A stretch of DNA of 64,000 bases from a bacterium. Lineage in GTDB: Bacteria > Patescibacteriota > Minisyncoccia > UBA6257 > UBA9933. Shown here in pieces: positions 2,242-54,617 of the stretch; the first letter of the stretch is position 1, and every line of letters starts with the position of its first letter. The translations under genes and the position numbers were made by a program. A model generated the notes under the pieces. That model did no database searches and was not told the DNA's origin. It worked only from the letters and a program-made list of their open reading frames with translations. The stretch covers positions 139,601-203,600 of the forward strand of contig JAUYBE010000006.1 of the NCBI GenBank assembly GCA_030693235.1, written 5' to 3'.

Positions 2242-2653
2242 TATGCCCACAATCAGCCAATTAATTAAAAAGAGAAGAAAAAATACCAAGAAAAAAACCA
2301 AAGCGCCGGCAATGGGTTTGTATTTTAACACGCAGGACAATAAGCCGGTTTATTCAAATTCGCCTTTCAAGCGCGGCGTTTGTTTAAAAGTTTTTACGAC
2401 TACGCCGAAAAAGCCGAATTCGGCCATGCGAAAAGTCGCCCGGGTGCGTTTAACCAACGGCATGGAAGTGACGGCTTATATTCCCGGCGTTGGACACAGT
2501 CTTCAAGAGCATTCGATAGTTATGATAAGGGGCGGCAGAGTCAAGGATTTGCCGGGCGTTAAATATCACATTGTCCGGGGAGTGTTGGACGCCGGCGGCG
2601 TTGAAGGCAGAAAACAGGAAAGAAGCAAGTATGGGGCGAAGAAACCGAAGTAG
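2242..2653 (+). CDS. rpsL: 30S ribosomal protein S12
   Basis: [19 protein letters not shown]...[14 protein letters not shown] core. Start placed at [10 protein letters not shown]. Confidence 0.9.
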
Positions 2654-2732
2654 CTTTTAGGTTTTAGTTTTTAGGTTTTAGATAATAAATTTCTAACACC
2701 TAACACCTAACACTTAACACCTAATACCTAAC
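2654..2732. repeat. family A themed palindrome (TTTTAGG)n-loop-(CCTAACA)n abutting the rpsG start
   Basis: Direct reading. The 3' arm ends 1 nt before the TTG start at 2733. Confidence 0.8.
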
Positions 2733-3200: not shown

Positions 3201-3202
3201 AT

Positions 3203-3275
3203 TAGTTTTTAGGTTTTAGTTTTTAGGTTTTAGATAAAAAAATCTAACACCTAACACCTAACACCTAACACCTAA
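3203..3275. repeat. family A themed palindrome abutting the fusA start
   Basis: Same motifs and orientation as 2654-2732. Ends 2 nt before the TTG start at 3278. Confidence 0.8.
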
Positions 3276-3277
3276 AA

Positions 3278-5428
3278 TTGCGTCAATATCCCTTAGAAAA
3301 ATATAGAAATATAGGAATAATAGCCCATATCGATGCCGGCAAAACAACCGTTTCCGAACGGGTTCTTTTTTATACCGGTGTTTCTCATAAAATCGGCGAG
3401 GTCCATGAGGGAGAGGCGATTATGGATTGGATGGAACAGGAAAAAGAAAGGGGAATCACCATCACCGCGGCGGCCACTACTTGTTTTTGGATGCCGACGT
3501 ATCGTCGGCCGCAGAATTACGCGGACTTGACGCGGACCGACGCGGAAGAAATCAAAAAAAAATATGAACATAGGATTAACATTATTGATACGCCCGGCCA
3601 TATCGATTTCACGGTTGAAGTTCAACGTTCATTAAGGGTGCTTGACGCTGCGGTTGTTATTTTTGACGGCGTGGCCGGCGTTGAACCGCAGTCCGAAACC
3701 GTCTGGCATCAGGCGGATAAATTTAAAGTGCCGCGAATTTGTTTTATCAATAAATTGGACCGGATAGGCGCTAATTTTGAGAAATCGTTTCTTTCAATCC
3801 AGGAAAGATTGAATCCCAACGCGATTGTCGTTCAAATACCGATAGGTCTGGAAGCAAATTTTGAAGGCATTATTGATTTGCTGGCAATGAAGGCTTTTTA
3901 TTTTGAAGGCGATCGCGGCGAAAAAATTATTGAAAAAGAAATACCAAACGAGTTAAAAGTTCAAAGTGAAAAGTTAAAAGTTCTATTAATTGAAAAAATC
4001 TCTGAAACCGACGAAAAATTGACGCAAAAATATCTTGAAGGAAAAGAAATCAGTTTTGAAGAACTTAAACAGGCGATGAGAAAAGCCACAATCAACAGTC
4101 AATTGGTTCCGGTTTTTTGCGGTTCGGCGTTGAAAAACAAAGGCGTTCAGTTGATGCTCGACGCCGTTTTGGATTATTTGCCTTCGCCGCTTGATTTGAA
4201 AGAAATCAAGCCGATTGAAGGAGCGCATCCGAAAACCGAAGAAAAAATTAATCGTCAACCGGCGGATAATGAACCGCTGGCGGCTTTGGCTTTTAAAATC
4301 GCCACAGACCCTTATGTCGGCAGCCTCACCTTCGTCAGAGTTTACAGCGGCGTTCTTAAGAGGGGATCTTACGTTCTGAATTCATCAAAGGGCAATCAGG
4401 AAAGAATCGGCCGGATTGTCCGAATGCACGCCAATCAACGGGAAGAAGTCGAGGAAATGTATGCCGGCGATTTGGGCGCGGCCGTAGGATTGAAAGGAAC
4501 TTCCACGGGCGATACTTTGTGCGATCCGGGCAATCCGATTGTTTTGGAAAAGATTATTTTCCCGGAGCCGGTGATTTCCGTCAGAATCGAGCCGAAAACG
4601 AAAGCCGATCAGGAAAAATTGGGTTTTGCCCTTCATAGATTATCAGAAGAAGATCCGACTTTCCGCATTAGCGGCGACCCCGATACCGGCGAGACGATTA
4701 TTTCCGGTATGGGCGAACTTCATTTGGAAATTATTATTGACCGGGCGAAAAGGGAATTTGGAGTTGAAGCGGATATCGGCAGGCCTCAGGTCGCTTATAA
4801 AGAAACTGTCAACGCCGAGTCCGAAGCTGAGGGTAGATATATCAAGCAATCCGGCGGTCGAGGTCAGTACGGCCATGTTTGGTTAAACGTTAAGTCATTG
4901 GAAAGGGGGAAAGGATTCGTCTTTGTCAATAAAATAAAAGGCGGTATTATTCCCCAGGAATTTATTCCGGCGGTTGAAAAAGGCGTTAAAGAAGCGTTAA
5001 GTAAGGGAATTTTAGCCGGTTATCCGATTGTTGATATTGAGGTGAAACTTTATGACGGTTCTTTTCATGAAGTTGACTCGTCGGAAATCGCTTTTAAAAT
5101 CGCCGGCGCGATGGCTTTTTTGGAAGCGGCAAAAAGAGCCAAGCCGGTGATTTTGGAACCGGTGATGAAAATTCAGGTAATCGCGCCTTTGGAATTTTTA
5201 GGCGACGTTACCGGCGATCTCAATGCCAAGCGCGGAAGGATTGAAAATATTTCAGATAGGGTTAATATTAAAGTGATAGATGTTAAAGTGTCCCTGGCTG
5301 AAATGTTCGGTTACGCGACCAAGTTGCGGTCAATGACTCAGGGCAGAGGAACCTTTACGATGGAATTCGACCATTATGAAGAAGTGCCATCAAATATTGC
5401 CCAGTTGATTATTGAAGGGAAGAAATGA
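3278..5428 (+). CDS. fusA: elongation factor G (TTG start)
   Basis: [17 protein letters not shown]-domain; 716 aa translational GTPase. Confidence 0.95.
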
Positions 5429-5436: not shown

Positions 5437-5508
5437 ATGTGTCATTGCGAACGAAGTGAAGCAATCTATATGTGAGATTGCCGCGGGCTTCGCCCTCGCA
5501 ATGACAGT
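5437..5508. repeat. family C palindrome GTCATTGCGA...TCGCAATGAC
   Basis: Arms gtcattgcgaacgaagtgaagcaatct / agattgccgcgggcttcgccctcgcaatgac. Lies between fusA and rplM. Confidence 0.7.
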
Positions 5509-6295: not shown

Positions 6296-6360
6296 ACCTA
6301 ATTATTCTAATTTCTAATTTCTAAATTAGGTCAATTAGAAATTAGGTCAATTAGAAATTT
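6296..6360. repeat. themed palindrome (TCTAATT)n / (AATTAGAAATTAGG)n
   Basis: Direct reading of inverted tandem motifs downstream of rpsI. Confidence 0.6.
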
Positions 6361-6915: not shown

Positions 6916-8154
6916 ATGAAACAATCTAAACTTTTTATCAAAACCAAACGCGAGGCGCCGAAAGACGAAGAGGCGATTAACGCTAGATTACTGATACGGG
7001 CGGGTTTTATCGATAAATTAATGGCGGGAGTTTACACTTTTTTGCCGTTAGGATTAAGAACGCTTAAAAAAATTGAAAATATTATTCGCGAAGAAATGAA
7101 CAAAGCCGGCGGACAGGAAGTTTTAATGCCCGGTCTTCAGCCGAAAGAAAATTGGGTAAAAACCGGAAGATGGGATTCTATGGATGATCTTTATAAAATT
7201 AAGGACGCAAGCGGAAGAGAGTTTGCTTTGGGTCCGACGCACGAAGAAGTGGTTTTCCCCTTACTTAAAAATGTCATTTTTTCTTATAAAGACCTGCCTC
7301 TTTATGTTTATCAAATTCAAAATAAATTCAGGATGGAATTAAGGGCAAAATCCGGCCTTTTGCGCGGAAGAGAATTTTTAATGAAAGATTTTTATTCTTT
7401 CCATACCGACGAAAAAGACAGAGATGATTATTATGATTTTATGGCGAAAGTTTATAAAAATATTTTTGACATACTAGGTATAGGAGATAAAACACACTAT
7501 ACGCTTGCCTCCGGCGGAACATTTTCCAAATATTCCCATGAATTTCAAACTGTCACCGATGCGGGCGAAGATACAATACATATTTGCTGTAAATGCGAAA
7601 TGGCCATAAATGACGATATTATAAAAGAAAATAAATCCTGTCCAAAATGCGGCGAATCAAGTTTTAGCCCAAAAAAGGCCATAGAAGTTGGGAATATTTT
7701 TAAATTAAAAGAAAAATTCGCCGATGATTTCGGATTGAAATTTAAAGATAAAGATGGAATGGAGAAAACGGTTATAACCGGCTGTTATGGAATCGGTCTT
7801 GGTCGGTTGATGGGAGCCGTTGTAGAGTCAAGCTATGATGAAAAAGGAATGATTTGGCCGGAATCAATCGCGCCGTTTCAAGTTCATTTAATCAGACTAA
7901 CGACAAACGACAAACGACAAACGATTTTTGCGGATAAAATTTATAATGCTTTACAAAAATCCGGCGTTGAAGTATTATACGACGACCGCGAAGATATTGG
8001 CGCCGGCGAGAAATTCGCCGATGCGGATTTAATCGGAATTCCATGGCGGGCCGTTGTCAGTGAAAGAACAGGAAATAAGATTGAGATTAAAAAAAGAAAT
8101 GAGAAGAAAACAAGACTGGTGAGCGAGAAAGAATTTATTAAGACACTAAAATGA
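6916..8154 (+). CDS. proS: prolyl-tRNA synthetase (short form without editing domain; Cys4 insertion)
   Basis: REAPKDEEAINARLLIRAGFI...GVYTFLPLGLR class II motifs. CCKCE...CPKCG insertion. Confidence 0.85.
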   Translation: MKQSKLFIKTKREAPKDEEAINARLLIRAGFIDKLMAGVYTFLPLGLRTLKKIENIIREEMNKAGGQEVLMPGLQPKENWVKTGRWDSMDDLYKIKDASGREFALGPTHEEVVFPLLKNVIFSYKDLPLYVYQIQNKFRMELRAKSGLLRGREFLMKDFYSFHTDEKDRDDYYDFMAKVYKNIFDILGIGDKTHYTLASGGTFSKYSHEFQTVTDAGEDTIHICCKCEMAINDDIIKENKSCPKCGESSFSPKKAIEVGNIFKLKEKFADDFGLKFKDKDGMEKTVITGCYGIGLGRLMGAVVESSYDEKGMIWPESIAPFQVHLIRLTTNDKRQTIFADKIYNALQKSGVEVLYDDREDIGAGEKFADADLIGIPWRAVVSERTGNKIEIKKRNEKKTRLVSEKEFIKTLK

Positions 8155-10104: not shown

Positions 10105-10719
10105 ATGAAAAGATCTAAAGAAAAACTGGAACGTTCGTTGGGGATGAAGCTTTTTTTGAAAGCGGATCGTTGTAATTCGCCAAAATGCGCGATGGTCAGG
10201 CATCCTCAGCGTCCGGGTATGCATGGCGGAAAACGCCGGAGGGCGAAAACAGAATATGGCGATCAATTATTGGAAAAACAAAGAATAAGAGCAAGCTACG
10301 GGCTTCGGGAAAAACAACTGGCCCGCATTGTCGAAGAGTCTATGAAAAAAACGGGTTCAGTGGGCGAAGCGATTATCAGCTCTTTGGAGCGTCAGTTTTT
10401 CAATGTGATTTTTCGTCTGGGAATAGCGCCTTCACGGGTTGTTTCAAGACAATTTATCAGCCATGGTCATTTTTTGGTTAACGGTAAAAAAGTTACCATT
10501 CCTTCTTATTCGACTAAAATAGGAGACATAGTTTCCATTAAACCTTCTTCTCGCGAGCTCTTGATTTTTAAAGATTTGCCTGATAAGCTTAAAAAATACG
10601 AAACGCTGGAATGGCTTGATTTGGATAAAGAAAAACTGGAAGGCAAAGTAAAGTCCTTGCCGCGCGATATTGAAATTCCGTTTGATATAAATTTAGTGGT
10701 GGATTATTATTCTAAATGA
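10105..10719 (+). CDS. rpsD: 30S ribosomal protein S4
   Basis: SYGLREKQ...GHFLVNGKKVTIPSY... uS4 pattern. Confidence 0.9.
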   Translation: MKRSKEKLERSLGMKLFLKADRCNSPKCAMVRHPQRPGMHGGKRRRAKTEYGDQLLEKQRIRASYGLREKQLARIVEESMKKTGSVGEAIISSLERQFFNVIFRLGIAPSRVVSRQFISHGHFLVNGKKVTIPSYSTKIGDIVSIKPSSRELLIFKDLPDKLKKYETLEWLDLDKEKLEGKVKSLPRDIEIPFDINLVVDYYSK

Positions 10720-10790
10720 GTTTTTAGGTTTTAGTTTTTAGGTTTTAGATAAAAAAATCTAACACCTAACACCTAACACCTAACACCTAA
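10720..10790. repeat. family A themed palindrome abutting the rpoA start
   Basis: Same motif and orientation. Ends 4 nt before the GTG start at 10795. Confidence 0.8.
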
Positions 10791-12063: not shown

Positions 12064-12153
12064 TCATACGAAAATACGAAAACATACGAAATTACGAAAA
12101 CTAACTTTCGTACATTCGTACAATTTCGCACTTTCGTAAGAAAATTTCGTATG
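12064..12153. repeat. family B themed palindrome (TACGAAA)n / (TTTCGTA)n whose 3' arm includes the tuf ATG
   Basis: catacgaaaatacgaaaacatacgaaattacgaaaa ... tttcgtacattcgtacaatttcgcactttcgtaagaaaatttcgtATG. Confidence 0.8.
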
Positions 12154-13790: not shown

Positions 13791-13822
13791 TTCCCCTCCG
13801 ACCTTGCGTCGGAGGGGTTTTT
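13791..13822 (+). terminator. intrinsic terminator (CCCCTCCGAC...GTCGGAGGGG + T-run) downstream of rpsJ
   Basis: 10-bp GC-rich stem followed by TTTTTTT. Confidence 0.6.
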
Positions 13823-14129: not shown

Positions 14130-14759
14130 ATGGCATTCATTTTAGGCAAAAAATTAAAAATGTCGCAGATTTGGAAAGATGATGAAGTGATTCCGGTAAC
14201 GTTGATTCAAGCGGGACCGATAACGATAACGCAAATCAGGACAAAGGAAAAAGACGGTTATGAAGCGGTTCAGGTTGGATTCGGAACGAAAAAATTAAAG
14301 AACATCAAAAAACCGCAGCAAGGCCAATTTAAAAATTTGGGCAATTTTCAGCATGTCCGCGAATTTCGGATTAAACAATTACCAATTACCAGTTACCAGT
14401 TACCAAAAGTAGGCGATGTTTTGGATGTCAGTCAATTTGAAGACGGTGGCAAAGTAAAAATCAGCGGCTTAAATAAAGGTAAGGGATTTCAAGGAGTCGT
14501 TAAGCGCCACGGTTTTCATGGCGGACCGAAAACTCACGGCCAAAAAAATCGCCATCGAGCGCCCGGTTCAATTGGCGCCACGGCGCCGCAACGGGTAATG
14601 CCCGGGAAAAAAATGGCCGGTCGAATGGGACAGGAACGAATAACGGTTAAAAATTTAAAAATTGCCGGCGTGGATAAAGAAAACAATATTTTGATGATTA
14701 AAGGCGCGGTGCCGGGAATGAGGGGAACACTGTTGGAAATTAATCAGTATGACAGTTAA
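14130..14759 (+). CDS. rplC: 50S ribosomal protein L3
   Basis: GKGFQGVVKRHGFHGGPKTHGQKNRHRAPGSIG uL3 signature. Confidence 0.9.
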   Translation: MAFILGKKLKMSQIWKDDEVIPVTLIQAGPITITQIRTKEKDGYEAVQVGFGTKKLKNIKKPQQGQFKNLGNFQHVREFRIKQLPITSYQLPKVGDVLDVSQFEDGGKVKISGLNKGKGFQGVVKRHGFHGGPKTHGQKNRHRAPGSIGATAPQRVMPGKKMAGRMGQERITVKNLKIAGVDKENNILMIKGAVPGMRGTLLEINQYDS

Positions 14760-18556: not shown

Positions 18557-18744
18557 AAAAACAAGAATTTCAACAATTTCAAAATAAGCCATTGATCGAG
18601 CTTCAAAAAGAATTATTGGACTATCGCGAGAAATTAAGAAAATTGAAGTTTGATTTGGCGCAGGGTAAAGTTAAAAATATTAAAGAAATAAACGGGACAA
18701 AGAAAATAATAGCGCGAATAATGACAATCATTAATATAAAGTAA
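18553..18744 (+). CDS. rpmC: 50S ribosomal protein L29
   Basis: 63 aa coiled helix; [24 protein letters not shown]. Confidence 0.8.
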
Positions 18745-18818
18745 TTGATAATTGCAAAATTGCTAATTGAAAGATTAATTTTTCAATCTTTAAATCAGCA
18801 ATCTTTCAATCATATTTT
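18745..18818. repeat. themed palindrome AATTGAAAGATT / AATCTTTCAATT (family G) before rpsQ
   Basis: gctaattgaaagattaa...ttcaatctttaaatcagcaatctttcaat. A related copy lies at 22600-22643. Confidence 0.55.
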
Positions 18819-19049
18819 ATGAAAAGAACACTACAAGGAACAATAGTTTCCGATAAAATGAATAAAACCAGAGTTGTGGCTGTAACGCGTCTTAAAAAAC
18901 ATCCGATATATCATAAATATTATAAAGTAACGCGGAAATTTAAGGCGCATGACGAAAAAAACGAATATAAGGCCGGAGAAAAAGTAATCATTGAAGAAAC
19001 AAGGCCGATCAGCAAAGATAAAAGATGGAGAATTATTGGGAAACAATAA
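18819..19049 (+). CDS. rpsQ: 30S ribosomal protein S17
   Basis: [18 protein letters not shown]...[27 protein letters not shown]. Confidence 0.85.
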
Positions 19050-19050
19050 G

Positions 19051-19118
19051 TTTTTAGGTTTTAGTTTTTAGGTTTTAGAGAATTTCTAACACCTAACACC
19101 TAACACCTAACACCTAAA
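19051..19118. repeat. family A themed palindrome abutting the rplN start
   Basis: Same motif and orientation. Ends 4 nt before the ATG at 19123. Confidence 0.8.
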
Positions 19119-20559: not shown

Positions 20560-20705
20560 GAATAATTCGAGAATAAATTCTCGATTATTCTAATTAAGAA
20601 TTAAGAATGCAGAATTAAGAATTAAAATGAATAATTTAAAAAATATTAAAACGCTAATTCTGAATTTATAATTCTAAATTCTTAATTAGCGAAATGAAAT
20701 TTCGC
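20560..20705. repeat. hairpin GAATAATTCGAGA/TCTCGATTATTC, then a themed palindrome (AATTAAGAATT)n, then a GCGAAATgaaATTTCGC hairpin abutting the rpsH ATG
   Basis: Direct reading of the rpsZ-rpsH spacer. Confidence 0.6.
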
Positions 20706-21089: not shown

Positions 21090-21180
21090 GCATACGAAAA
21101 TACGAAAACATACGAAAAATACGAAAACTAACTTTCGTACATTCGTACAATTTCGTACTTTCGTAAGAAAACTTCGTATG
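21090..21180. repeat. family B themed palindrome whose 3' arm includes the rplF ATG
   Basis: gcatacgaaaatacgaaaacatacgaaaaatacgaaaa...tttcgtacattcgtacaatttcgtactttcgtaagaaaacttcgtATG. Confidence 0.8.
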
Positions 21181-22129: not shown

Positions 22130-22603
22130 ATGCGAGAATTTAAAAAGAAAAGCGAATATAAGGAAAAAGTATTGGATATGCGTCGGGTTACGCGTGTGGT
22201 TGCCGGCGGCAAGCGATTTCGTTTTCGAGCGACCGTTATTATCGGCGATGAAAAAGGAAGAGTTGGCGTGGGGATAGCTAAGGGATTGGATGTCGCGCAA
22301 GCCATTGATAAAGCCAAAACAGACGCCAGAAAACATCTAATAACGGTTTTTTTGGAAAAACGAACTATTCCTTACGAATCTGAAGCGAAATTCAGCGCCG
22401 CGAAAGTTATTATTAAGCCCGCCAAGGCGGGTCATGGACTTAAAGCCGGCGGAGCGGTAAGACAAGTTTTGCTTTTAGCCGGGGTAAGAGACGCGACAGC
22501 AAAGTGTTTGGGCGGAACGAAAAATAAACTAACTAATGCGATGGCGACGATAGAAGCCCTGAAAAAATTAAAAAATTGCAAGATTGAAAAATTGAAAAAT
22601 TAA
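22130..22603 (+). CDS. rpsE: 30S ribosomal protein S5
   Basis: VTRVVAGGKRFRFRATVIIGDEKGRVGVGIAKG... Start is placed at the internal ATG at 22130 because the listed 21998 start overlaps rplR. Confidence 0.85.
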   Translation: MREFKKKSEYKEKVLDMRRVTRVVAGGKRFRFRATVIIGDEKGRVGVGIAKGLDVAQAIDKAKTDARKHLITVFLEKRTIPYESEAKFSAAKVIIKPAKAGHGLKAGGAVRQVLLLAGVRDATAKCLGGTKNKLTNAMATIEALKKLKNCKIEKLKN

Positions 22604-22643
22604 TCTTTAAATCTTTCAATTAGCAATCTTTCAATAGTTTTAT

Positions 22644-24460: not shown

Positions 24461-25198
24461 ATGATAGCAATCATAATGTATGGTCCTCCGGGCTCCGGTA
24501 AAGGAACTCAGGCTAAGCTTTTAGCCGATAAATTCGGGTTGATTCATTTTGACACAGGGAAATACATTGAACGAGTTGTTCACAATTCAAAAAATAAAAA
24601 AAATAAAATAATTCAAAAACAGCGCGAATTATTTGATTCCGGAATTTTATGCGATCCTTCTTGGGTTTTTAAAATTGTAAGCGAAAAAACTCGCCAGTTG
24701 GTTAAAATTGGTTTTGGTATTGTCTTTAGCGGCTCCCCCCGGACGTTTTACGAAACCTTTGGCATAAAACACGAAACAGACGCGAAAATTAAAAAAAACA
24801 CGAAACAGACGCGAAAATTAACAAGGGGTTTAATTGATATTTTAGAAAAATATTACGGCAAGAAAAATGTTTTTGTTTTTAATATTGATATTTCCGATAA
24901 AAATTCAATCAAAAGAAACGGCAATCGTTTAATGTGCTCGGTTTGCGGGACTCAGATATTAAATAAAGTTTTAAAGTTTAAAAGTTTAAAAGTTTCAAAG
25001 TGTCCGTTTTGCGGCGGAAAACTTTATCGCCGGACATTAGACAAACCGGAAATCATTAAAGTAAGATTAAAAGAATATCGGGAAAGAACATTGCCGATTC
25101 AAAAAGAATTGAAAAAACGCGGTTATAAAATTATTGATATTAATGGCGAGTCCTTGCCGGAAAAAGTTCATAAAAAAATATCTTCTTATTTAACTTAG
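24461..25198 (+). CDS. adk: adenylate kinase (zinc-LID type) carrying repeat-derived insertions
   Basis: GPPGSGKGTQA P-loop. CSVCG...CPFCGG LID. Internal 29-nt direct repeat and an AAGTTTAAAAGTT array. Confidence 0.8.
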   Translation: MIAIIMYGPPGSGKGTQAKLLADKFGLIHFDTGKYIERVVHNSKNKKNKIIQKQRELFDSGILCDPSWVFKIVSEKTRQLVKIGFGIVFSGSPRTFYETFGIKHETDAKIKKNTKQTRKLTRGLIDILEKYYGKKNVFVFNIDISDKNSIKRNGNRLMCSVCGTQILNKVLKFKSLKVSKCPFCGGKLYRRTLDKPEIIKVRLKEYRERTLPIQKELKKRGYKIIDINGESLPEKVHKKISSYLT

Positions 25199-26001: not shown

Positions 26002-26751
26002 ATGAAACCTTATCTTTCCGTCATCATTCCTGCTTATAACGAGGCCAAGCGTTTGCCGCTGACTTTAATTGATATTGACAAGCATCTTAAAAGCGCGGAT
26101 TTTTCTTATGAAATTATTGTTGTTGATAATAATTCCACCGATGCCACGCCGGCAGTCGTTGAAAGATTTTCGCATTTGATTGAAAATTTAAAATTAATAG
26201 AATGTCATATTCCGGGCAAAGGAGCGGCGGTAAAAAAGGGGATGCTTGAAGCAAAGGGTGAAATCCGGATTTTCACGGATGCGGATAATTCCACTTCAAT
26301 CGACCAATTCAATAAAATGATTCCTTATTTTTGTAGAAGCGGAACTACGCGGAATAAAATAGGATATGATATCGTAATCGGTTCCCGAGACATTGAAGGC
26401 GCTAAATTAATTCCATCTCAACCATGGTATAAAAGGCTGGCGGGCAATCTTGGCAATTTATTTATTCAATTTATGCTTTTGCCCGGAATTTGGGATACCC
26501 AGTGCGGTTTTAAAGCGTTTACCGAAGAAGCGGCCGAGAAAATTTTTCCCTTAATAAAAATCAGCCGTTGGGGGTTTGACGTTGAAATTTTGGCTTTGGC
26601 GAAAAAATTCGGCTATAAAATTAAAGAAATTCCCGTTGTCTGGGTGAATAATCCGTTTTCGTATGTCAAAGCATCGGCGTATATTCAGGTTTTGTTGGAA
26701 GTGGTGAAAATAAAATGGTGGATAATAACAAATAAATATAAAATAAAATAA
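26002..26751 (+). CDS. family 2 glycosyltransferase (dolichyl/polyprenyl-phosphate sugar synthase-like)
   Basis: SVIIPAYNEA...VVDNNSTD... GT2 N-terminal motifs. Confidence 0.7.
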   Translation: MKPYLSVIIPAYNEAKRLPLTLIDIDKHLKSADFSYEIIVVDNNSTDATPAVVERFSHLIENLKLIECHIPGKGAAVKKGMLEAKGEIRIFTDADNSTSIDQFNKMIPYFCRSGTTRNKIGYDIVIGSRDIEGAKLIPSQPWYKRLAGNLGNLFIQFMLLPGIWDTQCGFKAFTEEAAEKIFPLIKISRWGFDVEILALAKKFGYKIKEIPVVWVNNPFSYVKASAYIQVLLEVVKIKWWIITNKYKIK

Positions 26752-28570: not shown

Positions 28571-29833
28571 ATGTTAGATATTAATTTTATCCGTCAAAAT
28601 TCGGAAGAAGTCAAAAAAGGCGTTGCCGCCAAAAATGTAAATCCTCAATTAGTGGATGATTTTTTGGTTTTGGATAATGAATGGCGAGAGTTGGTCAAAG
28701 AAACCGATGATTTGCGGGCAGAACAGAAGAAGCTTTCCGAAGAGCGTAAAATCAATGAAGCAAAAGAATTAAAAAATAAAATTCAAAATCTGGAAGAAAG
28801 ATTGAAGCAAGTTGAAACCGAACGTCAGAAAATTTTATACCAATTGCCGAATTTGCCGTTAGAAGACGTACCGGTAGGCAAAAATGAAAGCGAAGATATT
28901 GTTTTACGCGAAGTGGGTGAAAAGTTAAGCTTTGACTTTGAACCGAAAGATTATTTGGAGCTCGCCGAAAAATTGGATTTAATTGACATTAAACGCGCTT
29001 CAAAAGTTTCAGGAAGCCGCTTCGGTTATTTAAAAAATCAAGCGGCGCTTTTGGAATTCGCTTTGATTAAATTAGCATTAGACACAGCGGCCAAACATGG
29101 ATTTACGCCGATTATTCCGCCGGTGATGATTAAAGAAGAAATGATGAAAGGAATGGGATATATTCAAAGTTCAATGTTAGACGAGGAAGTTTATTTTTTA
29201 AGAGACGATGATTTGGTTTTGGTTGGAACTTCCGAGCAGTCTCTCGGCCCGATGCATAGCGATGAGATTTTTGAAGAAAAAGATTTGCCCAAAAGATATG
29301 TGGCTTTTTCAACCTGTTTTCGCCGCGAAGCTGGTTCTTATGGAAAAGACACCAAAGGCATTTTAAGGGTTCATCAATTTGATAAAATAGAAATGTTTAT
29401 ATTTTCACTTCCAGAAAATTCATTAAAAGAACATCTGTTAATGCTGAAAATTGAGGAAGAATTAATGCGGGAATTAGGAATCCCTTATCGGGTTGTTCAG
29501 CTTTGCACGGGCGATATAGCTCAGCCGTCGGCTTCCACTTATGATATTGAGGCGTGGCTACCGGGCCAAAACAACGGCAAGGGCCAGTATCGTGAAACTC
29601 ACTCCACTTCCAATTGCACCGATTTCCAAGCCCGAAGATTAAATATCCGTTATAAACCCCTAAAACCTAAAACCCAAAACCTAAAACCTAATTACGTTCA
29701 CACCCTAAACGGCACCGCTTTCGCAATTGGCAGAATGCTTATCGCCATCATTGAAAATTACCAACAAAAAGACGGTTCGGTTTTAATGCCGAAAGTTTTG
29801 CAAAAGTACTTAGGATTCAAGAAAATTGAATAA
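28571..29833 (+). CDS. serS: seryl-tRNA synthetase carrying an in-frame family-A-like repeat insertion
   Basis: N-terminal coiled coil plus class II core (TCFRREAGSYG...HTLNGTAFAIGRMLIAIIENYQ). Confidence 0.85.
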   Translation: MLDINFIRQNSEEVKKGVAAKNVNPQLVDDFLVLDNEWRELVKETDDLRAEQKKLSEERKINEAKELKNKIQNLEERLKQVETERQKILYQLPNLPLEDVPVGKNESEDIVLREVGEKLSFDFEPKDYLELAEKLDLIDIKRASKVSGSRFGYLKNQAALLEFALIKLALDTAAKHGFTPIIPPVMIKEEMMKGMGYIQSSMLDEEVYFLRDDDLVLVGTSEQSLGPMHSDEIFEEKDLPKRYVAFSTCFRREAGSYGKDTKGILRVHQFDKIEMFIFSLPENSLKEHLLMLKIEEELMRELGIPYRVVQLCTGDIAQPSASTYDIEAWLPGQNNGKGQYRETHSTSNCTDFQARRLNIRYKPLKPKTQNLKPNYVHTLNGTAFAIGRMLIAIIENYQQKDGSVLMPKVLQKYLGFKKIE

Positions 29834-31494: not shown

Positions 31495-32361
31495 ATGAAA
31501 AGCAGCATATATTTTGACGAAAAATCGGAGCGGAGAAGAAAGCGGATGTTAAAAATCAAGATTTACGCGGGATTAGCGGCTTTTTTTGTTTTGCTCATCG
31601 GCGCGGGGTATTTGATCGTTTATTCTCCGCTATTTCAAATTAAAAACATTTCAATATTTCGGTCGTCCGACGACCGAAATTTGACATCGGACGTTCAGAA
31701 ATTAAAAGAAAATCTTAAAAATTTCTTTACCAACCAATCAAAAATTGCCGAATTTTTGGGCCCTGAAAATATTTTGATTTGGAAATCGGAAAAATCCGCT
31801 GAGTTTATAAAAAATTATCATCAAATCGCGGAATTGAAAATCGAAAAGCATTATTTGGGACGGGAAATAAAAATCAGCGTTTCGGAAAGAGAGCGATTTG
31901 GCATTTGGTGCTTCATAACGCGGAACTACGCGGAAGATAACGCGGAACTACGCGGAAATAGTCTGCGTGAGTCAGCATGCTGGTGGTTTGATAAAAAGGG
32001 TGTTATTTTTTCGGAAGCGTTGAAGGCGGAAGGGCAATTGATAAATAAAGTAGATGATTTTTCCGGCCGTTCCTTAAATCTCGGCGAACCGGTTCTTGAA
32101 GAAAAATTTCTTTCTAATTTGTTTAAAATTTTTGAAATTCTTGAAAAATCGGATTTGAAAATAAAATCGCTGAAATTGGAAAATCTTAAACTTCAAGAAG
32201 TTGTTACCGATTCGCCGTTAATGCCGAAAATCCATTTCAGCTTAAGAATTAATTCGGAATTCGCCTTAGCCGCTTTGGATTCCATCAAAAAAATCGGATT
32301 TAGTAAAATAGAGTATATCGATTTAAGAGTGGAGAATAGAGCATATTACAAACTTAAGTAA
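31495..32361 (+). CDS. hypothetical membrane-anchored protein, possibly FtsQ/DivIB-like (POTRA)
   Basis: Single N-terminal TM helix. IKISVSERERFGIWC resembles the POTRA beta-strand. Contains a tandem ACGCGGAA insertion. Confidence 0.25.
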   Translation: MKSSIYFDEKSERRRKRMLKIKIYAGLAAFFVLLIGAGYLIVYSPLFQIKNISIFRSSDDRNLTSDVQKLKENLKNFFTNQSKIAEFLGPENILIWKSEKSAEFIKNYHQIAELKIEKHYLGREIKISVSERERFGIWCFITRNYAEDNAELRGNSLRESACWWFDKKGVIFSEALKAEGQLINKVDDFSGRSLNLGEPVLEEKFLSNLFKIFEILEKSDLKIKSLKLENLKLQEVVTDSPLMPKIHFSLRINSEFALAALDSIKKIGFSKIEYIDLRVENRAYYKLK

Positions 32362-32365: not shown

Positions 32366-34207
32366 TTATAGTTTGTAAATAAATATTGATTTACCCGCTT
32401 TAAAATCCGGCTGATACGGATTTTTTATTTCTTTCAGCCATTGGTATTCGTTTTCCGGACTTCTTGATTGGCCCGGATGAAGTTCGCCAAAAGCGTTTTG
32501 AAGAGTATTAATTGAAATCGCCAACCATCCAATATTTTCGTATTTCGGATTATTTTTCGATGATTGCCAATATTCAGCTTTATCTCCCAAATAATATTTC
32601 GGGTTGCCGCCGCCGAAATAATCAATGGCGATCTTTTTTATGTCATTGTTATAGTCATTGTCATTGTTTCTATCATTCACCCATTTAGCTAGTCGTTTCA
32701 AATCCTGACCCCAGTCGTAGTTAGAATCCACGGCGTAACGATAACCGTTATTTGTTCCGCCGGCGAATTGGTTGAAATAAGAAAGAAAATGAGGATAAAC
32801 CAACAAGGTTTCGGCAAAATACCAAACCATTAAAACGGCGATTAAAATTTTTTTAGTTTTTGCTTTTTTGCCATTAATCCATTTTTTAATCGCGCCGGCA
32901 GTTAAGATATAAATAAACGGCATTGTCGGCAGAATATGCCGAATACCGATATTCAACGGACTTTTAATACTGTAAAGCCAATAGAAAATCACAAATGAAA
33001 TCATTGCGAATTCGGCGAAATGAAGACCGAGATAGTCCATTAAACGACATTTGACATTTGACACTTGACATTTGACATTTTTAACAATTCTCCAAGAAGC
33101 AAAAATAAAAGCAAGAAGAATTAATATCAGCGACGGAATAGATTCTTTTAAAATAAAAAGTACTGGAAAATAATACCACCAACCAACTGCCGAAACTTCG
33201 CCCAAGAAATAACCGGTATTACCGCCGGATGAACGTTGCATCACCATTAAAACGCCGAGCATATATTCTCCAAGCGGCCTTAAAATTTTATTATTGGCCA
33301 TCCAAATATTAATTTCCGCCAAACATCGTAAATTCAGTTTACAGCTTTCCCAATTTGCGTCCGGGCCGCCGGCAAAAGAAGCTAAAGTGAATTTTGTGTC
33401 GGCAAACTGTTTTTCAATCGGATAATTAATCGTAAACAAGAAATAAACCGCGTAGACCAAGGCGTAGCCGATAATAAAAATCAATAAAAGCGCTTTAATA
33501 TAATGAAAAGCTTTATTTTGCTGTTTGTCGTAATAAATTTTCCAGATATAAAAAATAACGATTAAAAATATAAAAAACGGAATTAAAAGCACGGCAGAAA
33601 ATTTCATCAATTGGGCGACGCCGAAAGCCAAGCCGGCGAAAATTAAATATTTTTGCGACGGCCCAAGGAGAAATTTTACAAAATAATAAGTGGCGATGAA
33701 TATTCCCAGAGCCGCGCCGAGGTCAGTAGTAACATAATGGCCGTGAGCAAGTACGGTCGGAGAAAGGGAAAAGAGAAAAGCGGGAAACAGCGCCCACCAG
33801 CGGCCCATAAGTTCTTTTCCCCAAATATAAATAAAAATTATTAAGAGGAGAGTTAAAAGCATCGGGCCCAAACGCGACCACTGGATAATTTTATCGGCGT
33901 CGTTTCCGGATTCATATAAAAATTGGTTGCCGGCTTCCCATTGGCCGTTAATGTCATTTTGCCAAGCGGATTTGTCAGTCGGAAAATTCAACTTGTGAAA
34001 TAATAACGGCAAAGCGGCTAAAGTTTTTACCAAAGGCGGATGTTCGGGATTTAAACGATAATCCAGATATTTGACGTAGCCGTAGCCGGCCGGAATGTGC
34101 GCCAGTTCATCCATTGTGGCCGATTCCTGGAGAGAGGCGTTGAGCATCAAAAAAAATGACGCTGAAACAATCGCGGCCAACAAAAGCCAATTAATGTATT
34201 TATTCAT
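32366..34207 (-). CDS. GT-C fold membrane glycosyltransferase (GT39 / ArnT / PMT_2-like)
   Basis: About 12 TM helices. An N-terminal MDELAH first-loop acidic motif. Contains tandem CATTTGACA and TCATTG arrays. Confidence 0.55.
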   Translation of the reverse strand: MNKYINWLLLAAIVSASFFLMLNASLQESATMDELAHIPAGYGYVKYLDYRLNPEHPPLVKTLAALPLLFHKLNFPTDKSAWQNDINGQWEAGNQFLYESGNDADKIIQWSRLGPMLLTLLLIIFIYIWGKELMGRWWALFPAFLFSLSPTVLAHGHYVTTDLGAALGIFIATYYFVKFLLGPSQKYLIFAGLAFGVAQLMKFSAVLLIPFFIFLIVIFYIWKIYYDKQQNKAFHYIKALLLIFIIGYALVYAVYFLFTINYPIEKQFADTKFTLASFAGGPDANWESCKLNLRCLAEINIWMANNKILRPLGEYMLGVLMVMQRSSGGNTGYFLGEVSAVGWWYYFPVLFILKESIPSLILILLAFIFASWRIVKNVKCQVSNVKCRLMDYLGLHFAEFAMISFVIFYWLYSIKSPLNIGIRHILPTMPFIYILTAGAIKKWINGKKAKTKKILIAVLMVWYFAETLLVYPHFLSYFNQFAGGTNNGYRYAVDSNYDWGQDLKRLAKWVNDRNNDNDYNNDIKKIAIDYFGGGNPKYYLGDKAEYWQSSKNNPKYENIGWLAISINTLQNAFGELHPGQSRSPENEYQWLKEIKNPYQPDFKAGKSIFIYKL

Positions 34208-40418: not shown

Positions 40419-40419
40419 C

Positions 40420-52127: not shown

Positions 52128-52853
52128 TTGTACCAATTACAACTTGAAAAATTTTCCGGACCGATTGAAAAACTTCTGGAACTGATCGAGAGGAAAAAAT
52201 TGGAAATCACCGAATTAAATTTAGCCGACGCAACGGCTGATTTTTTAAATTACGTTAAAAGGATTGAAAATATAGAACCGCGTCTTTTGGCGGATTTCGT
52301 GGTAATAGCCGCCAAACTTTTACTTATCAAATCAAAAGCGCTTCTGCCGAATCTTCAATTAACCGAAGAGGAAGAAAAAGACATAAAAGATTTGGAAAAC
52401 CGCCTCAAAATTTACCGGCAATTCAAGCCGGCGATTGACCATCTTAAAGAATTGTCGGAACGGAACGGAGTCTCGATTTCCCAGCCGCTCTTCAGCCGCC
52501 GACCGATAATTTTTTATCCGTCGGAAAATATTAAAATCGGCGAATTGCATAAAGCCATCAAAGGAATTTTTGACAACTTTAAACAATTTCAAAACGAGAC
52601 CAAAATAATCAAATCTTCGCTTATTACTTTGGAGGAAAAAATCGAGGAGATTATAAATCGGCTGAACGCGGACTCACGCAGACTTGACGCGGACTCGCGC
52701 GGAAAAATTGGTTTTGATGAATTAATAAGGGGAAAACCGCGTTCGGAAATTATTGTTTTGTTTTTAGCCTTACTTCATCTATTGGCAAAGCAATCGATAA
52801 GGGTTGAGCAAAAAGAAAAATTTTCTGATATAATTATTACTAAACAACCATGA
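52128..52853 (+). CDS. scpA: segregation and condensation protein A
   Basis: Kleisin-like ScpA pattern. Directly upstream of scpB. Confidence 0.7.
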   Translation: MYQLQLEKFSGPIEKLLELIERKKLEITELNLADATADFLNYVKRIENIEPRLLADFVVIAAKLLLIKSKALLPNLQLTEEEEKDIKDLENRLKIYRQFKPAIDHLKELSERNGVSISQPLFSRRPIIFYPSENIKIGELHKAIKGIFDNFKQFQNETKIIKSSLITLEEKIEEIINRLNADSRRLDADSRGKIGFDELIRGKPRSEIIVLFLALLHLLAKQSIRVEQKEKFSDIIITKQP

Positions 52854-53450: not shown

Positions 53451-54617
53451 ATGCGCTTCCAAGCCTTAATTCTTTCATTAATTATTTTGATTTCGTTTTT
53501 AATAACCGGCGTTAATGGTTCGGCTTCGCTCACCATTTTAGCCGAAGAAAATCCGGCGCCTGAACCAATAGACACTTCGCCGTCTCTTTTCGCAAAAGAT
53601 TTTTATTCCGCTTTTAAAGAAAAAACAATTATTCTTGGAGAAAAAACTGCTCTGGCGAACCGTGATTTAGCGGAAAAAATAAATCAAAACATGGATTTTT
53701 TAAATCAAGCCGCGTCCGTCAATTTCGATAATTTTATTTTGAAATTAAATTCTCAGCCAGAGGCTGATCCGCCTCGGGCGGAAAAAAATAATTCCAAAGA
53801 CTACGCTTTAATCTCAGAAACGGGGATTGATTTGTCACCGTTAATTTGCGATTCGGAAATTCCTCAACTCGCGGTTAAAGCGGCTTTGGTAAAATATTTG
53901 AGTCCCTCGATGGATTCGGAACAGGTTATTTTTGAACTCAATCCCGGGAGCCGTTGGCCGATCGCTTCTTTGACAAAATTAATGACAAGCGTTATCGCCG
54001 CCGAGAAAATTGATTCGGACATTGATTCGGACAAGGAAATAACGATGAGCGCGAAAGCGGTTGCCACCGAAGGCGCAGCCGGAGGTTTTGGGGTTGGAGA
54101 AATTTATAAAACAGGCGATTTGATCAAGGCGATGCTTGTTTCTTCGAGCAATGACGCGGCGGCAGGCGTTATTGAAAATTTCGGCGAAAAAGAATTTATT
54201 GACGAGATGCAAAAAAAGGCGGCCGAGCTTAAAATGTTTCAAACCAGCTATCTGGAACCGACCGGTTTGTCTTTTATCAATCAATCAACAGCCAATGATT
54301 TGGCCAAATTAGTGAATTATGTGCGCCAAAATCATCCGGAATTGCTTGAAATTTCCCGCCAAAAAGAAGTGGAAATTTTTGAACTAAAATCAAAGAAAGC
54401 GAGAAAATTATTATCGGTGAATAGATTCGCCGGACAAACGGATTTTATCGGCGGGAAAACCGGCTATATTGAAGAATCAGGCCGCAATTTAGTCGCCCTT
54501 TTTGACATTAACGGCAAAATAATTTTAAGCATTGTGCTGGGCGCCGACGATTCTTTTAAAGAAACGGAGAAAATAAAAAGTTTTATTCAAAAATGTATCT
54601 CACCCACGCTTTTCTAA
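53451..54617 (+). CDS. D-alanyl-D-alanine carboxypeptidase (PBP5/DacA-like serine peptidase)
   Basis: Signal peptide. ASLTKLMT (SxxK), SSSND (SxN), GGKTGY (KTG). Confidence 0.7.
   Translation: MRFQALILSLIILISFLITGVNGSASLTILAEENPAPEPIDTSPSLFAKDFYSAFKEKTIILGEKTALANRDLAEKINQNMDFLNQAASVNFDNFILKLNSQPEADPPRAEKNNSKDYALISETGIDLSPLICDSEIPQLAVKAALVKYLSPSMDSEQVIFELNPGSRWPIASLTKLMTSVIAAEKIDSDIDSDKEITMSAKAVATEGAAGGFGVGEIYKTGDLIKAMLVSSSNDAAAGVIENFGEKEFIDEMQKKAAELKMFQTSYLEPTGLSFINQSTANDLAKLVNYVRQNHPELLEISRQKEVEIFELKSKKARKLLSVNRFAGQTDFIGGKTGYIEESGRNLVALFDINGKIILSIVLGADDSFKETEKIKSFIQKCISPTLF

What the first reader, a model, noticed from the sequence alone, without database searches (positions are those of the whole stretch)
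7899..7924. Short in-frame tandem repeats inside several conserved genes (proS, scpA, FtsQ-like, PBP)
proS has (ACGACAA)x3 at 7899-7924, giving TTNDKRQT. scpA has GACGCGGACTC repeats at 52665-52705, giving NADSRRLDADSRGK. The FtsQ-like gene has (ACGCGGAA/CTACGCGGAA) at 31917-31958, and the same CGGAACTACGCGGAA 15-mer also appears in the GT2 gene at 26340-26354. The PBP gene has (ATTGATTCGGAC)x2 at 54009-54032, giving IDSDIDSD. Together with serS and adk, this shows a genome-wide tendency for microsatellite-like, in-frame expansions in housekeeping proteins.
Basis: seen in the sequence. Interest (0 to 1): 0.5.

Follow-up and report, generated by a model that had tools for sequence, protein, structure and literature searches.

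The report
Short-period repeat arrays inside essential genes
A small groundwater bacterium of the Patescibacteria carries many 7-11-base tandem repeat arrays, the same kind that forms hairpins between its genes, inside surface loops of essential proteins; they are DNA-level passengers, not protein repeats and not fast-changing microsatellites.

Summary
Coding regions hold 12 arrays with TRF score >=50, against 0.95 in codon-shuffled controls. "Microsatellite-like in-frame expansion" fits only part of this. 16 of 22 coding arrays have periods that are not multiples of 3 (7, 8, 10, 11, 29). ACGCGGA units are read in all three frames. Three arrays (proS, serS, second fusA) add no length relative to orthologues. 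The fusA loop, GT2, adk, scpA, FtsQ-like and PBP arrays are real insertions of 4-22 aa in loops. The two arrays testable in close strains were stable: proS is invariant in 8 variants, and the fusA array is identical at 91% nt identity. Over deeper divergence the proS linker holds different heptamers in the same register (0.87 identity within an array, 0.45 between lineages), a concerted-evolution pattern. The larger phenomenon is intergenic. About half of the spacers >=40 nt hold hairpins whose arms are heptamer arrays. These are absent from orthologous spacers of an 80% relative and carry compensatory changes in a 91% strain. The closest analogues are cyanobacterial STRR/heptameric repeats and in-frame Rickettsia palindromic elements. 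I class this as a new variant of a known kind, of moderate interest.

The parts
7895..7924 (+). proS: heptamer array (GACAAAC/AAACGAC) x4.3 encoding LTTNDKRQT. It lies in the beta1-alpha1 linker at the start of the anticodon-binding domain.
   Evidence: TRF; frame; Pfam. No length change relative to the clade's array-bearing homologues. Other heptamers occupy the same register in L082, L094, L096, L103, L108 and L147.
3519..3546 (+). fusA array 1: (ACGCGGAnnn) x3 encoding [10 protein letters not shown]. It is an insertion in the hypervariable loop between ATTCFW and INIIDT.
   Evidence: Identical in strain L172.
3951..3982 (+). fusA array 2: (AGTTAAA) x4.6 encoding [11 protein letters not shown] in the G' region. 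No length change. One deviating unit removes an in-frame TAA.
   Evidence: In L172 the same site carries a 30-nt double mini-hairpin insertion.
14376..14406 (+). rplC (L3): (CAATTAC) x4.4 in a length-variable loop.
24766..24821 (+). adk: perfect 29-mer x1.9. The two copies are read in different frames (KHETDAKIKK / NTKQTRKLT). This is an insertion of 16-22 aa.
24965..25001 (+). adk LID region: (AAAGTTTA) x4.6, about +2 aa. Its only deviation from the consensus unit removes an in-frame TAA.
26335..26364 (+). GT2: 8-aa insertion (CRSGTTRNKI against NE) containing the ACGCGGA-family 15-mer CGGAACTACGCGGAA.
29653..29691 (+). serS: (CCTAAAA) x4.7 encoding PLKPKTQNLKP. The unit is the complement of the family-A hairpin left arm. 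Same loop length as relative L090. The single deviating unit (CCCAAAA) removes an in-frame TAA.
31915..31975 (+). FtsQ-like: perfect 22-mer x2 (four ACGCGGA units read in all three frames), followed by an inverted unit GTCTGCGTGAGTC. It is an insertion in a beta-hairpin loop.
   Evidence: The orthologous L090 insert folds with z -2.0.
33046..33080 (-). PMT-family glycosyltransferase: (AAATGTC) x5, +4 aa. L090 carries a different array (CTAAAAG-type) at the same site.
52666..52703 (+). scpA: ACGCGGACTC-type units (21-nt super-period) encoding NADSRRLDADSRG, about +11 aa relative to the closest relatives.
54009..54033 (+). PBP (S11 DD-carboxypeptidase): perfect 12-nt tandem duplication, +4 aa (IDSD). 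This is the one clean codon-unit duplication.
53753..53782 (+). PBP: two adjacent 15-nt GC-rich mini-hairpins (TCAGCCAGAGGCTGA, TCCGCCTCGGGCGGA) read in frame (SQPEADPPRAE). They lie within an insertion absent from L084.
   Evidence: Same architecture as the L172 fusA insertion.
3202..3275 (+). Representative family-A intergenic hairpin: (TTTTAGG/TTTTAGT)n, loop, (CTAACAC)n. Other copies are at 2651-2732, 10719-10790, 19049-19117, 53377-53446 and 57199-57265, plus 51517-51593 on the minus strand.
   Evidence: Fold z -2.8 to -4.9. Absent from the orthologous spacers of L084. Compensatory changes in L172.
21091..21165 (+). Representative family-B intergenic hairpin: (ATACGAAA)n, loop, (TTTCGTAC)n. 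Other copies are at 12065-12140 and 55670-55750.
   Evidence: Fold z -6.7 and -7.2. The 55670 copy separates two genes that overlap by ATGA in L084.

Best explanation
The in-gene repeats are the coding-region share of a lineage-wide class of short-period (7-11 nt) tandem arrays. The same building blocks, paired as inverted arrays, form hairpins in about half of this genome's larger intergenic spacers.

Shown:
- The arrays are nucleotide-level objects. Their periods are mostly not multiples of 3, and the same unit is read in two or three frames.
- They sit only in loops and linkers that tolerate any sequence.
- Some are insertions and some simply occupy a loop of unchanged length.
- Where it could be tested (proS, fusA array 1), they are stable between close strains.
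- At deeper divergence the same site holds different units that are homogeneous within each array.
- They deviate from the perfect repeat where a stop codon would otherwise fall in frame.

Inferred:
- The arrays arise by slipped-strand duplication and/or by copying or insertion of arms of the dispersed hairpin families.
- They are then homogenised by slippage or gene conversion among units (concerted evolution).
- Selection acts only to keep the frame open, remove stops, limit loop length and avoid stable mRNA structure.
- The encoded peptides probably have no function of their own.

The PBP 12-mer is a plain recent tandem duplication and needs nothing more.
For: - Non-random excess of arrays in coding and intergenic sequence.
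- 16 of 22 coding arrays have non-3n periods.
- ACGCGGA units are read in all three frames in fusA, FtsQ-like, scpA and GT2. The adk 29-mer copies are read in two frames.
- Array sites are length-variable loops or linkers in orthologue alignments. In the FtsQ-like AlphaFold model the site is the only low-pLDDT internal loop.
- Units are shared with hairpins. The serS unit is the complement of the family-A arm. In L108 the proS unit GAAGTCA recurs in arrays at four other places within 7 kb, three of them in two intergenic hairpins.
- The FtsQ-like array has an inverted partner, and its L090 orthologue folds with z -2.0.
- The same nucleotide motif AACGCGGACTCA occupies the same scpA site in relatives of 50-64% identity but is absent from 80-86% relatives.
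- proS linker: 24.9% identity at offset 7 aa against 6-12% at other offsets; 147 matches against 56 expected, maximum 82 in 1000 shuffles. Seven lineages carry different heptamers in one register, with identity 0.87 within arrays, 0.45 between lineages and 0.56 in the flanks.
- Strain-level stability.
- Stop avoidance: 4 of 11 deviations fall in the 12 of 219 positions that would form in-frame stops. In serS and the adk LID array the only deviation is the stop-removing one.
- In-gene single-arm arrays are unstructured (z about 0) whereas the intergenic pairs give z -3 to -7.
Against: - No step of the generating mechanism is observed directly.
- The window's proS unit AAACGAC has no second copy in the 64 kb, so a link to a hairpin family is shown for only some arrays.
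- Concerted evolution of one old proS array cannot be fully separated from repeated independent origin. The window and L082 units are out of phase with each other and share little with the other five.
- The stop-avoidance statistic is partly circular, because the ORFs are open by definition.
- Strain-level stability was tested for only two arrays, and for proS in most variants only at the peptide level.
- Only 64 kb of this genome was examined, and all relatives are metagenome assemblies.
- A function for the arrays in mRNA or DNA is not excluded.
Confidence: 0.6

Rival explanations
1. Pure local microsatellite behaviour. Each array arose on the spot by replication slippage of native sequence and keeps expanding and contracting in frame.
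For: - The PBP 12-mer x2 is exactly this: a perfect duplicate, orthologues have one copy, and the unit is a multiple of 3.
- Homologue linker and loop lengths vary (proS linker 8-18 aa; FtsQ-like loop 0 to about 75 aa; scpA 0 to about 33 aa), so units are gained and lost over long times.
- The literature attributes the bacterial excess of heptameric repeats to polymerase slippage (PMC4692102).
Against: - The same units occur in unrelated genes and in intergenic hairpins.
- Inserts such as GT2, scpA and the adk 29-mer pair show no similarity to the orthologous native sequence.
- No copy-number variation was seen among strain-level variants.
- Single-unit slippage of a 7-nt unit would frameshift an essential gene.
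Confidence: 0.2
2. The arrays are functional nucleic-acid elements placed inside coding sequence. Examples would be binding sites for a protein or small RNA, or translation-pausing or mRNA-processing signals, selected for at these positions.
For: - Arrays recur at the same protein sites in different lineages with different units (proS, PMT, FtsQ-like, serS).
- The intergenic counterparts are clearly under structural selection, shown by compensatory changes in L172.
Against: - Unit sequences differ freely between lineages, so no sequence-specific partner is plausible.
- The in-gene arrays have no predicted structure.
- Close relatives lack several of them without any visible compensation (scpA in L084, GT2 and adk in L090).
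Confidence: 0.08
3. Protein-level selection for repeated or disordered peptides, as proposed for the amino-acid tandem repeats of Borg elements.
For: The arrays lie in exposed loops and add polar, low-complexity residues.
Against: - Periods are mostly not multiples of 3.
- The repeated DNA gives non-repeated peptides because the frame rotates.
- Peptides at one site differ completely between lineages.
Confidence: 0.03
4. Assembly or binning artefact in a metagenome-assembled genome.
For: Repeats are a known source of misassembly.
Against: - The same arrays appear in independent assemblies from other samples and pipelines: ENA Hainich contigs L081, NCBI L172 and the Logan proteins P0241 and P0382.
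- All the ORFs remain open.
Confidence: 0.01

Closest known systems
Heptameric simple-sequence repeats of bacteria, including the cyanobacterial STRR (short tandemly repeated repetitive) sequences and the Xanthomonas/Nostoc heptamers
   Same: - Units of 7 nt in tandem arrays of about 4-5 copies, with several unit families per genome.
- Mostly intergenic, close to gene ends, sometimes as inverted pairs.
- Over-representation ascribed to polymerase slippage (PMC4692102).
- From my own knowledge, STRR arrays also occur inside a functional gene (cyanobacterial RNase P RNA).
   Different: - The host is a Patescibacteria/Parcubacteria genome, not a cyanobacterium or a xanthomonad.
- The units are A/T-rich, not G-rich quadruplex formers.
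- Most intergenic arrays come as complementary pairs forming periodically mismatched hairpins.
- Arrays also sit inside essential protein-coding genes.
Rickettsia palindromic elements (RPE) and other MITEs inserted in frame into protein-coding genes
   Same: - Dispersed repeat families found both between genes and inside unrelated housekeeping genes.
- They insert without breaking the frame, at positions compatible with the fold (PMC10969869).
- Here: ACGCGGA units in four genes, the family-A unit in serS, and the GC-rich mini-hairpin pair in PBP (window), fusA (L172) and FtsQ-like (L090).
   Different: - RPEs are about 100-150 bp and encode a conserved peptide in one frame. These elements are 20-60 nt, internally tandem-repetitive, read in any frame and often single-armed.
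- No sequence relation to RPE was tested, and no transposase was identified.
REP/BIME and MITE-type intergenic hairpin repeats
   Same: - Multi-copy hairpins occupy spacers in operons.
- Presence or absence differs between related genomes.
- Orientation follows that of the genes.
   Different: - The stems are built from tandem 7-8-nt units with a regular mismatch every unit.
- The 3' arm ends 0-10 nt before the next start codon.
- Target-site duplication is unclear.
Phase-variable contingency loci (for example the Haemophilus and Neisseria repeat tracts)
   Same: Non-3n tandem units lie inside reading frames.
   Different: - The host genes are essential housekeeping genes.
- No copy-number polymorphism was seen among strains.
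- A frameshift here would be lethal, not regulatory.

Membership tests
Phase-variable SSR contingency locus | Tandem short units inside a reading frame or promoter | tested here: met
   TRF arrays of 7-11-nt units inside ORFs.
Phase-variable SSR contingency locus | Unit-number polymorphism among closely related strains | tested here: not met
   The proS linker peptide is invariant in 8 variants of >=90% identity, and the L081 DNA has the same copy number. fusA array 1 is identical in L172 at 91% nt identity. Only two arrays could be tested.
Phase-variable SSR contingency locus | Host gene is dispensable or surface-related, so that a frameshift acts as a switch | tested here: not met
   The hosts are proS, fusA, serS, adk, rplC, scpA and an FtsQ-like gene.
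Codon-unit amino-acid tandem repeats (Borg-type aaTR) | Unit length divisible by 3, giving repeated peptides | tested here: not met
   16 of 22 coding arrays are not 3n, and peptides rotate through the frames. Exception: the PBP 12-mer.
RPE-like in-frame palindromic element | Dispersed multi-copy family present in unrelated genes and in spacers | tested here: met
   ACGCGGA units occur in four genes. The family-A unit occurs in serS and in 7 spacers. The mini-hairpin pair occurs in PBP, L172 fusA and L090 FtsQ-like. Not shown for the proS unit.
RPE-like in-frame palindromic element | Element is palindromic (hairpin-forming) | tested here: inconclusive
   Met for the L172 fusA insert (z -4.4) and the L090 FtsQ-like insert (z -2.0). 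Not met for the proS, serS, scpA and adk arrays (z about 0) or the window's FtsQ-like array (z -0.8).
RPE-like in-frame palindromic element | Absent from orthologues (insertion polymorphism) | tested here: inconclusive
   Insertions: fusA array 1, GT2, adk 29-mer, scpA, FtsQ-like, PBP. No length change: proS, serS, fusA array 2.
RPE-like in-frame palindromic element | About 100-150 bp with a conserved encoded peptide | tested here: not met
   The elements are 20-60 nt and are read in different frames.
STRR / bacterial heptameric SSR | 7-nt units in tandem, several families, mainly intergenic | tested here: met
   Period 7 (or 14) dominates among the 30 intergenic or gene-edge arrays, and period 7 is also the commonest single period among coding arrays.
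STRR / bacterial heptameric SSR | Cyanobacterial host and STRR unit sequences | tested here: not met
   The host is a Patescibacteria MAG, and the units are unrelated A/T-rich heptamers.
MITE / REP | Insertion polymorphism at orthologous spacers | tested here: met
   Four hairpins in 51.5-57.3 kb are absent from syntenic L084.
MITE / REP | Target-site duplication and a cognate transposase | tested here: inconclusive
   The junctions show only a possible TAA repeat (scpB-PBP) and loosely similar 8-9-nt flanks (mraY junction). The few Pfam scans run show no transposase, but the window was not scanned completely and the rest of the genome was not available.

The most novel reading that the evidence does not exclude
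Parcubacteria-type genomes may carry a self-homogenising repeat system. In this reading, heptamer-unit hairpins with a conserved periodic U·C mismatch are placed directly in front of start codons in a genome without Shine-Dalgarno sequences. There they would act in mRNA processing, insulation or translation initiation. The same machinery or process would continuously overwrite tolerant loops of essential proteins, so that coding arrays evolve in concert with the genome's own hairpin families.
Probability: 0.25. Interest if true: 0.75.

Novelty: new variant of a known kind. Interest (0 to 1): 0.5.

Why it matters
Tandem arrays with periods that are not multiples of 3 are normally confined to switchable contingency genes, because losing or gaining one unit destroys the reading frame. 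Here they sit in essential genes (prolyl- and seryl-tRNA synthetases, EF-G, adenylate kinase, ribosomal protein L3). They persist across strains and are replaced by other arrays at the same site in sister lineages.

This gives a tractable case for studying how DNA-level repeat dynamics (slippage, conversion, spread of hairpin elements) shape protein loops in the reduced genomes of the Candidate Phyla Radiation.

It also matters in practice. Peptides such as TQINAD, NAELRG, ADSRG, TTNDKR or SAKGGSASGG in CPR proteins are translated repeat DNA, not motifs. They can mislead alignments, phylogenies and domain calls.

The associated intergenic hairpins, which show compensatory evolution, are candidates for an undescribed post-transcriptional element in these organisms.

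Tried and rejected
- Chance or composition: rejected by codon-preserving shuffles.
- Known RNA families: the Rfam gathering search found only three tRNAs.
- Intrinsic terminators: the heptamer hairpins are not called by the terminator scan. They lack G+C-rich stems and T tails, they occur between most genes of the ribosomal-protein operon, and a classical terminator exists elsewhere at 13793-13817.
- Hidden hairpin partners for the in-gene arrays: folding gave z about 0 for proS, serS, scpA and adk.
- Exact-protein look-up of the window's ProS: no record, and the best database hit is 93% although neighbouring proteins of the same NCBI MAG are present. This is unexplained. The gene may not be annotated as a protein in that record.
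- A second copy of the proS unit or of the adk 29-mer in the window: none found.
- Suspected large insertions or inteins in CPR EF-G genes (match spans of 2.6-3.0 kb): dropped. The ORFs themselves are about 2.1 kb. The long spans are most likely extra hits to the G domain of the adjacent tuf gene; this is an inference and was not checked further.
- Literature searches for a description of such repeats in Patescibacteria/CPR found nothing specific. This library does not cover all journals.
Full report
**What the window is**

The window is a compact (about 91% coding), 39% G+C stretch of a Patescibacteria (Parcubacteria-type) genome.
- It contains rpsL-rpsG-fusA, proS, the S10/spc ribosomal-protein operon, adk, map, a GT2 glycosyltransferase, serS, an FtsQ-like gene, scpA-scpB and an S11 DD-carboxypeptidase.
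- Several of its proteins are identical to entries of an NCBI metagenome-assembled genome (locus tags Q8N28_, contig of 228,450 nt).
- The closest EF-G among GTDB species representatives is only 72% identical, and its relatives are Parcubacteria, Wolfebacteria and Paceibacteria MAGs.

**Check of the observation**

- TRF extends the proS array to 7895-7924 (4.3 copies of a heptamer, 95% match).
- The FtsQ-like array is a perfect 22-mer x2.
- The PBP repeat is a perfect 12-mer x2.
- The 15-mer CGGAACTACGCGGAA is shared exactly by GT2 and the FtsQ-like gene. A search allowing up to 2 mismatches found 4 matches against 0.15 expected.
- The 'FtsQ-like' label is justified. There is no Pfam hit, but the AlphaFold model (pLDDT 87, pTM 0.74) matches E. 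coli and Yersinia FtsQ structures at E about 3e-7.

Against 40 controls in which codons were shuffled within each gene and bases within each spacer:

| Arrays | Observed | Expected |
|---|---|---|
| Coding, TRF score >=50 | 12 | 0.95 (maximum 3) |
| Coding, TRF score >=40 | 22 | 3.9 |
| Intergenic, TRF score >=50 | 20 | 0.08 |

The spacers make up only about 9% of the sequence. Array density is 0.52 per kb, against a median of 0.09 per kb in 80 related loci.

**The repeats are DNA-level, not peptide-level**

- Of the 22 coding arrays with score >=40, 16 have periods not divisible by 3 (7, 8, 10, 11, 13, 14, 16, 22, 29).
- The core ACGCGGA is read in all three frames within the FtsQ-like array and in different frames in fusA, scpA and GT2, giving TRNYAE, NAELRG, ADSRR and YADLTR.
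- The two perfect 29-nt copies in adk are translated in two frames.
- Idealised perfect arrays would contain in-frame stops in fusA array 2, serS, the adk LID array and ORF 35912-37480. In serS and the adk LID array the only deviation from the consensus unit is the base that removes that stop. Overall, 4 of 11 deviations fall in the 12 of 219 positions that would form stops. This test is partly circular, because the ORFs are open by definition.

**Expansion or not: orthologue tests**

| Array | Length relative to orthologues |
|---|---|
| fusA array 1 | about +14 aa, in the hypervariable loop between ATTCFW and INIIDT |
| GT2 | +8 aa |
| adk 29-mer pair | +16 aa vs L090; about 22 aa vs all solved adenylate kinases |
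| scpA | about +11 aa vs the five closest homologues (79-86% identity) |
| FtsQ-like | loop between FGIWC and CWWFDK, 0 to about 75 aa in 59 homologues |
| PBP | +4 aa, a clean duplication of native sequence |
| PMT | +4 aa |
| rplC | a few aa, in a variable loop |
| proS | none vs the clade's array-bearing homologues |
| serS | none vs L090; +4 aa vs Aquifex SerRS |
| fusA array 2 | none |

In the FtsQ-like AlphaFold model the array region is the only low-confidence internal loop.

**Stability and turnover**

At strain level:
- Eight ProS variants of >=90% mutual identity all read RLTTNDKRQTIF.
- Contig L081 (92% nt identity) has the same four units with one substitution.
- L172 (91% nt identity) has fusA array 1 unchanged although the flanks differ.

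At greater distance the arrays turn over.
- The 83%-identical ProS of L082 has (AAATCTC) x4.6 at the orthologous position, with the same linker length.
- Across 91 distinct homologue linkers, amino-acid identity at offset 7 is 24.9% against 6-12% at other offsets. That is 147 matches against 56 expected, with a maximum of 82 in 1000 shuffles.
- DNA from seven lineages shows a different heptamer in the same codon register in each: CGACAAA, CAAATCT, GGTGTCA, AATCTCA, GAAGTGA, GAAGTCA and GTAATCA.
- Unit identity is 0.87 within arrays, 0.45 between lineages and 0.56 in the flanks.
- More distant ProS (<=62% identity) have a non-repetitive xLGDDEKVKKEADK linker.
- This is the signature of concerted evolution of an old array, or of repeated replacement.
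- Other sites behave the same way. At the PMT site the window has (AAATGTC)n and L090 a CTAAAAG-type array. The FtsQ-like loop has ACGCGGA-type units in the window and L090 but (CAACGAC) x4 in L089. The serS loop has CCTAAAA units in the window and a degenerate GTTAGAN x4 in L090.

**Link to dispersed elements**

- The scpA insert is missing from the closest relatives. The same nucleotide motif AACGCGGACTCA sits at the same site in ScpA genes of 64% and 50% identity, with 2 and 3 units.
- The FtsQ-like array is followed by an inverted unit whose reverse complement equals a scpA unit. The longer orthologous insert in L090 folds as a hairpin (z -2.0).
- The serS unit is the complement of the left arm of the window's commonest intergenic hairpin.
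- In L108 the proS unit GAAGTCA recurs in arrays at four other places within 7 kb, three of them in two intergenic hairpins.
- A further element is a pair of 15-nt G+C-rich mini-hairpins (TCCGCCnnnGGCGGA). It is read in frame in the window's PBP (53753-53782). In the fusA of strain L172 it lies exactly within the array-2 site, as a strain-level insertion polymorphism that folds at -22.5 kcal/mol with z -4.4. By its peptide, it is also in L090's FtsQ-like gene and in one ProS linker.
- The window's own proS unit has no second copy in the 64 kb.

**The intergenic counterpart**

- 15 of 34 spacers of >=40 nt contain arrays with score >=40. Most of these are pairs of complementary arrays.
- Family A, (TTTTAGG/TTTTAGT)n - loop - (CTAACAC)n, has seven copies. 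Family B, (ATACGAAA)n - loop - (TTTCGTAC)n, has three. Several others are unique.
- As RNA they fold into long, regularly interrupted stems, with z -2.8 to -7.2. The single-arm arrays inside genes give z about 0.
- They follow the orientation of the genes; the one minus-strand copy lies before minus-strand dnaX.
- The 3' arm of family A ends 0-10 nt before a start codon at all seven sites.
- None of 74 genes has a Shine-Dalgarno match.
- They are not classical terminators.
- In the syntenic dnaX-murG region of an 80% relative (L084), four of these hairpins are simply absent. In one case the two genes overlap by ATGA there.
- In strain L172 the orthologous rpsG-fusA hairpin has TAGG changed to TAGC in the left units and CACC changed to CAGC in the right units. 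This is a compensatory change spread over all units of both arms. The periodic U·C mismatch is retained.
- Inverted array pairs of this kind, with lineage-specific units, occur in 21 of the 173 sequences held (about 1.95 Mb).

**Interpretation**

The best reading is that the in-gene repeats are passengers of a DNA-level repeat dynamic that is very active in this lineage.
- Arrays of 7-11-nt units arise by slippage and/or by copying of hairpin-family arms.
- They survive only in loops and linkers where any peptide of acceptable length is tolerated.
- They are kept open-reading and unstructured by selection.
- They are homogenised internally over time.

The mechanism of origin and homogenisation is inferred, not shown. 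The purely local microsatellite view explains the PBP duplication and the long-term length variation, but not the sharing of units between genes, the frame rotation or the strain-level stability. Protein-level selection and assembly artefacts are contradicted by the frame analysis and by independent assemblies.

**Comparison with known systems**

- An excess of heptameric repeats is documented in bacteria, notably cyanobacterial STRR and the Xanthomonas/Nostoc repeats. These are mostly intergenic and of unknown function (PMC4692102).
- In-frame insertion of dispersed palindromic elements into housekeeping genes is documented for Rickettsia RPEs and some MITEs (PMC10969869).
- The present case combines both in a Patescibacteria genome and differs in three ways: the hairpin stems are built from tandem units with a regular mismatch, arrays with non-3n periods lie inside essential genes, and there is array turnover or concerted evolution at fixed protein sites.
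- I found no description of this for CPR bacteria in the searchable library. That is not proof of absence.
- I rate it a new variant of a known kind, of moderate interest.

Noticed in passing
window 2651-2732, 3202-3275, 10719-10790, 19049-19117, 51517-51593(-), 53377-53446, 57199-57265; family B at 12065-12140, 21091-21165, 55670-55750; others at 1211-1314, 6305-6359, 18742-18812, 20592-20687, 22562-22635: About half of the spacers >=40 nt hold hairpins whose two arms are complementary tandem arrays of 7-8-nt units, with a regular mismatch (U·C in family A). RNA fold z is -2.8 to -7.2. The 3' arm of family A ends 0-10 nt before the next start codon. They are not terminator-like.
   Followed up: partly
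L172 535-608 compared with window 3202-3275: The orthologous rpsG-fusA hairpin in a strain of 91% nt identity has G>C in the left-arm units and C>G in the right-arm units. This is compensatory and is spread over all units, and the U·C mismatch is conserved. It indicates selection on the structure and concerted evolution of both arms.
   Followed up: partly
window 51516-57264 compared with L084 1383-8068: Four hairpins present in the window are absent from the same spacers of an 80% relative. At mraY/amidohydrolase the relative's genes overlap by ATGA where the window has a 95-nt hairpin spacer. The junctions give no clear target-site duplication.
   Followed up: partly
whole window (upstream of 74 called genes): No gene has a GGAG, GAGG or AGGA match at -16 to -5. 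Start codons are preceded by A/T-rich sequence, so this genome apparently does not use Shine-Dalgarno initiation.
   Followed up: partly
window 53753-53782; L172 fusA insertion; L090 FtsQ-like (peptide SAEGGSASGGK): A pair of 15-nt G+C-rich mini-hairpins (TCCGCCnnnGGCGGA type) is inserted in frame in different conserved proteins, in different reading frames. In fusA it is a strain-level presence/absence polymorphism.
   Followed up: partly
window 5441-5505, 37935-37998, 61318-61328, 59649-59659: Another inverted-repeat element with termini GTCATTGCGAG...CTCGCAATGAC (about 65 nt) lies 10-20 nt upstream of three start codons. There are 6 matches to the 11-mer against 0.6 expected.
   Followed up: no
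window 6916-8154 (proS): The window's ProS sequence is not in the protein collection (best hit 93%), although ScpA, EF-G, Adk, SerRS, GT2, PBP and the FtsQ-like protein of the same NCBI MAG are present. proS may not be annotated as a protein in that record.
   Followed up: no
window 38008-40341 and tRNA-Thr 40346-40419: A VirD4/TraG-type type IV coupling protein lies next to a tRNA gene. Relatives (L089, L090) have Bro-N-domain genes beside the same gene, so this may be part of an integrated mobile element.
   Followed up: no
window 35912-37480(-), arrays at 36223-36309 and 37437-37466: A 522-aa ORF without any Pfam match carries two adjacent single-arm arrays (TTACGAA-type, resembling family-B units, and TTTACTTTC-type) and a third array near its 5' end. 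The gene model was not verified.
   Followed up: no
L082 8009-8071: A perfect 30-nt unit x2.1 that is itself palindromic (AAATCCCCCACATATACATATGTGGGGGAT), TRF score 126, in a relative's contig.
   Followed up: no
window 13793-13817: A classical intrinsic terminator (10-bp G+C-rich stem followed by a T run) lies inside the S10-operon region. The organism therefore does use conventional terminators alongside the heptamer hairpins.
   Followed up: no
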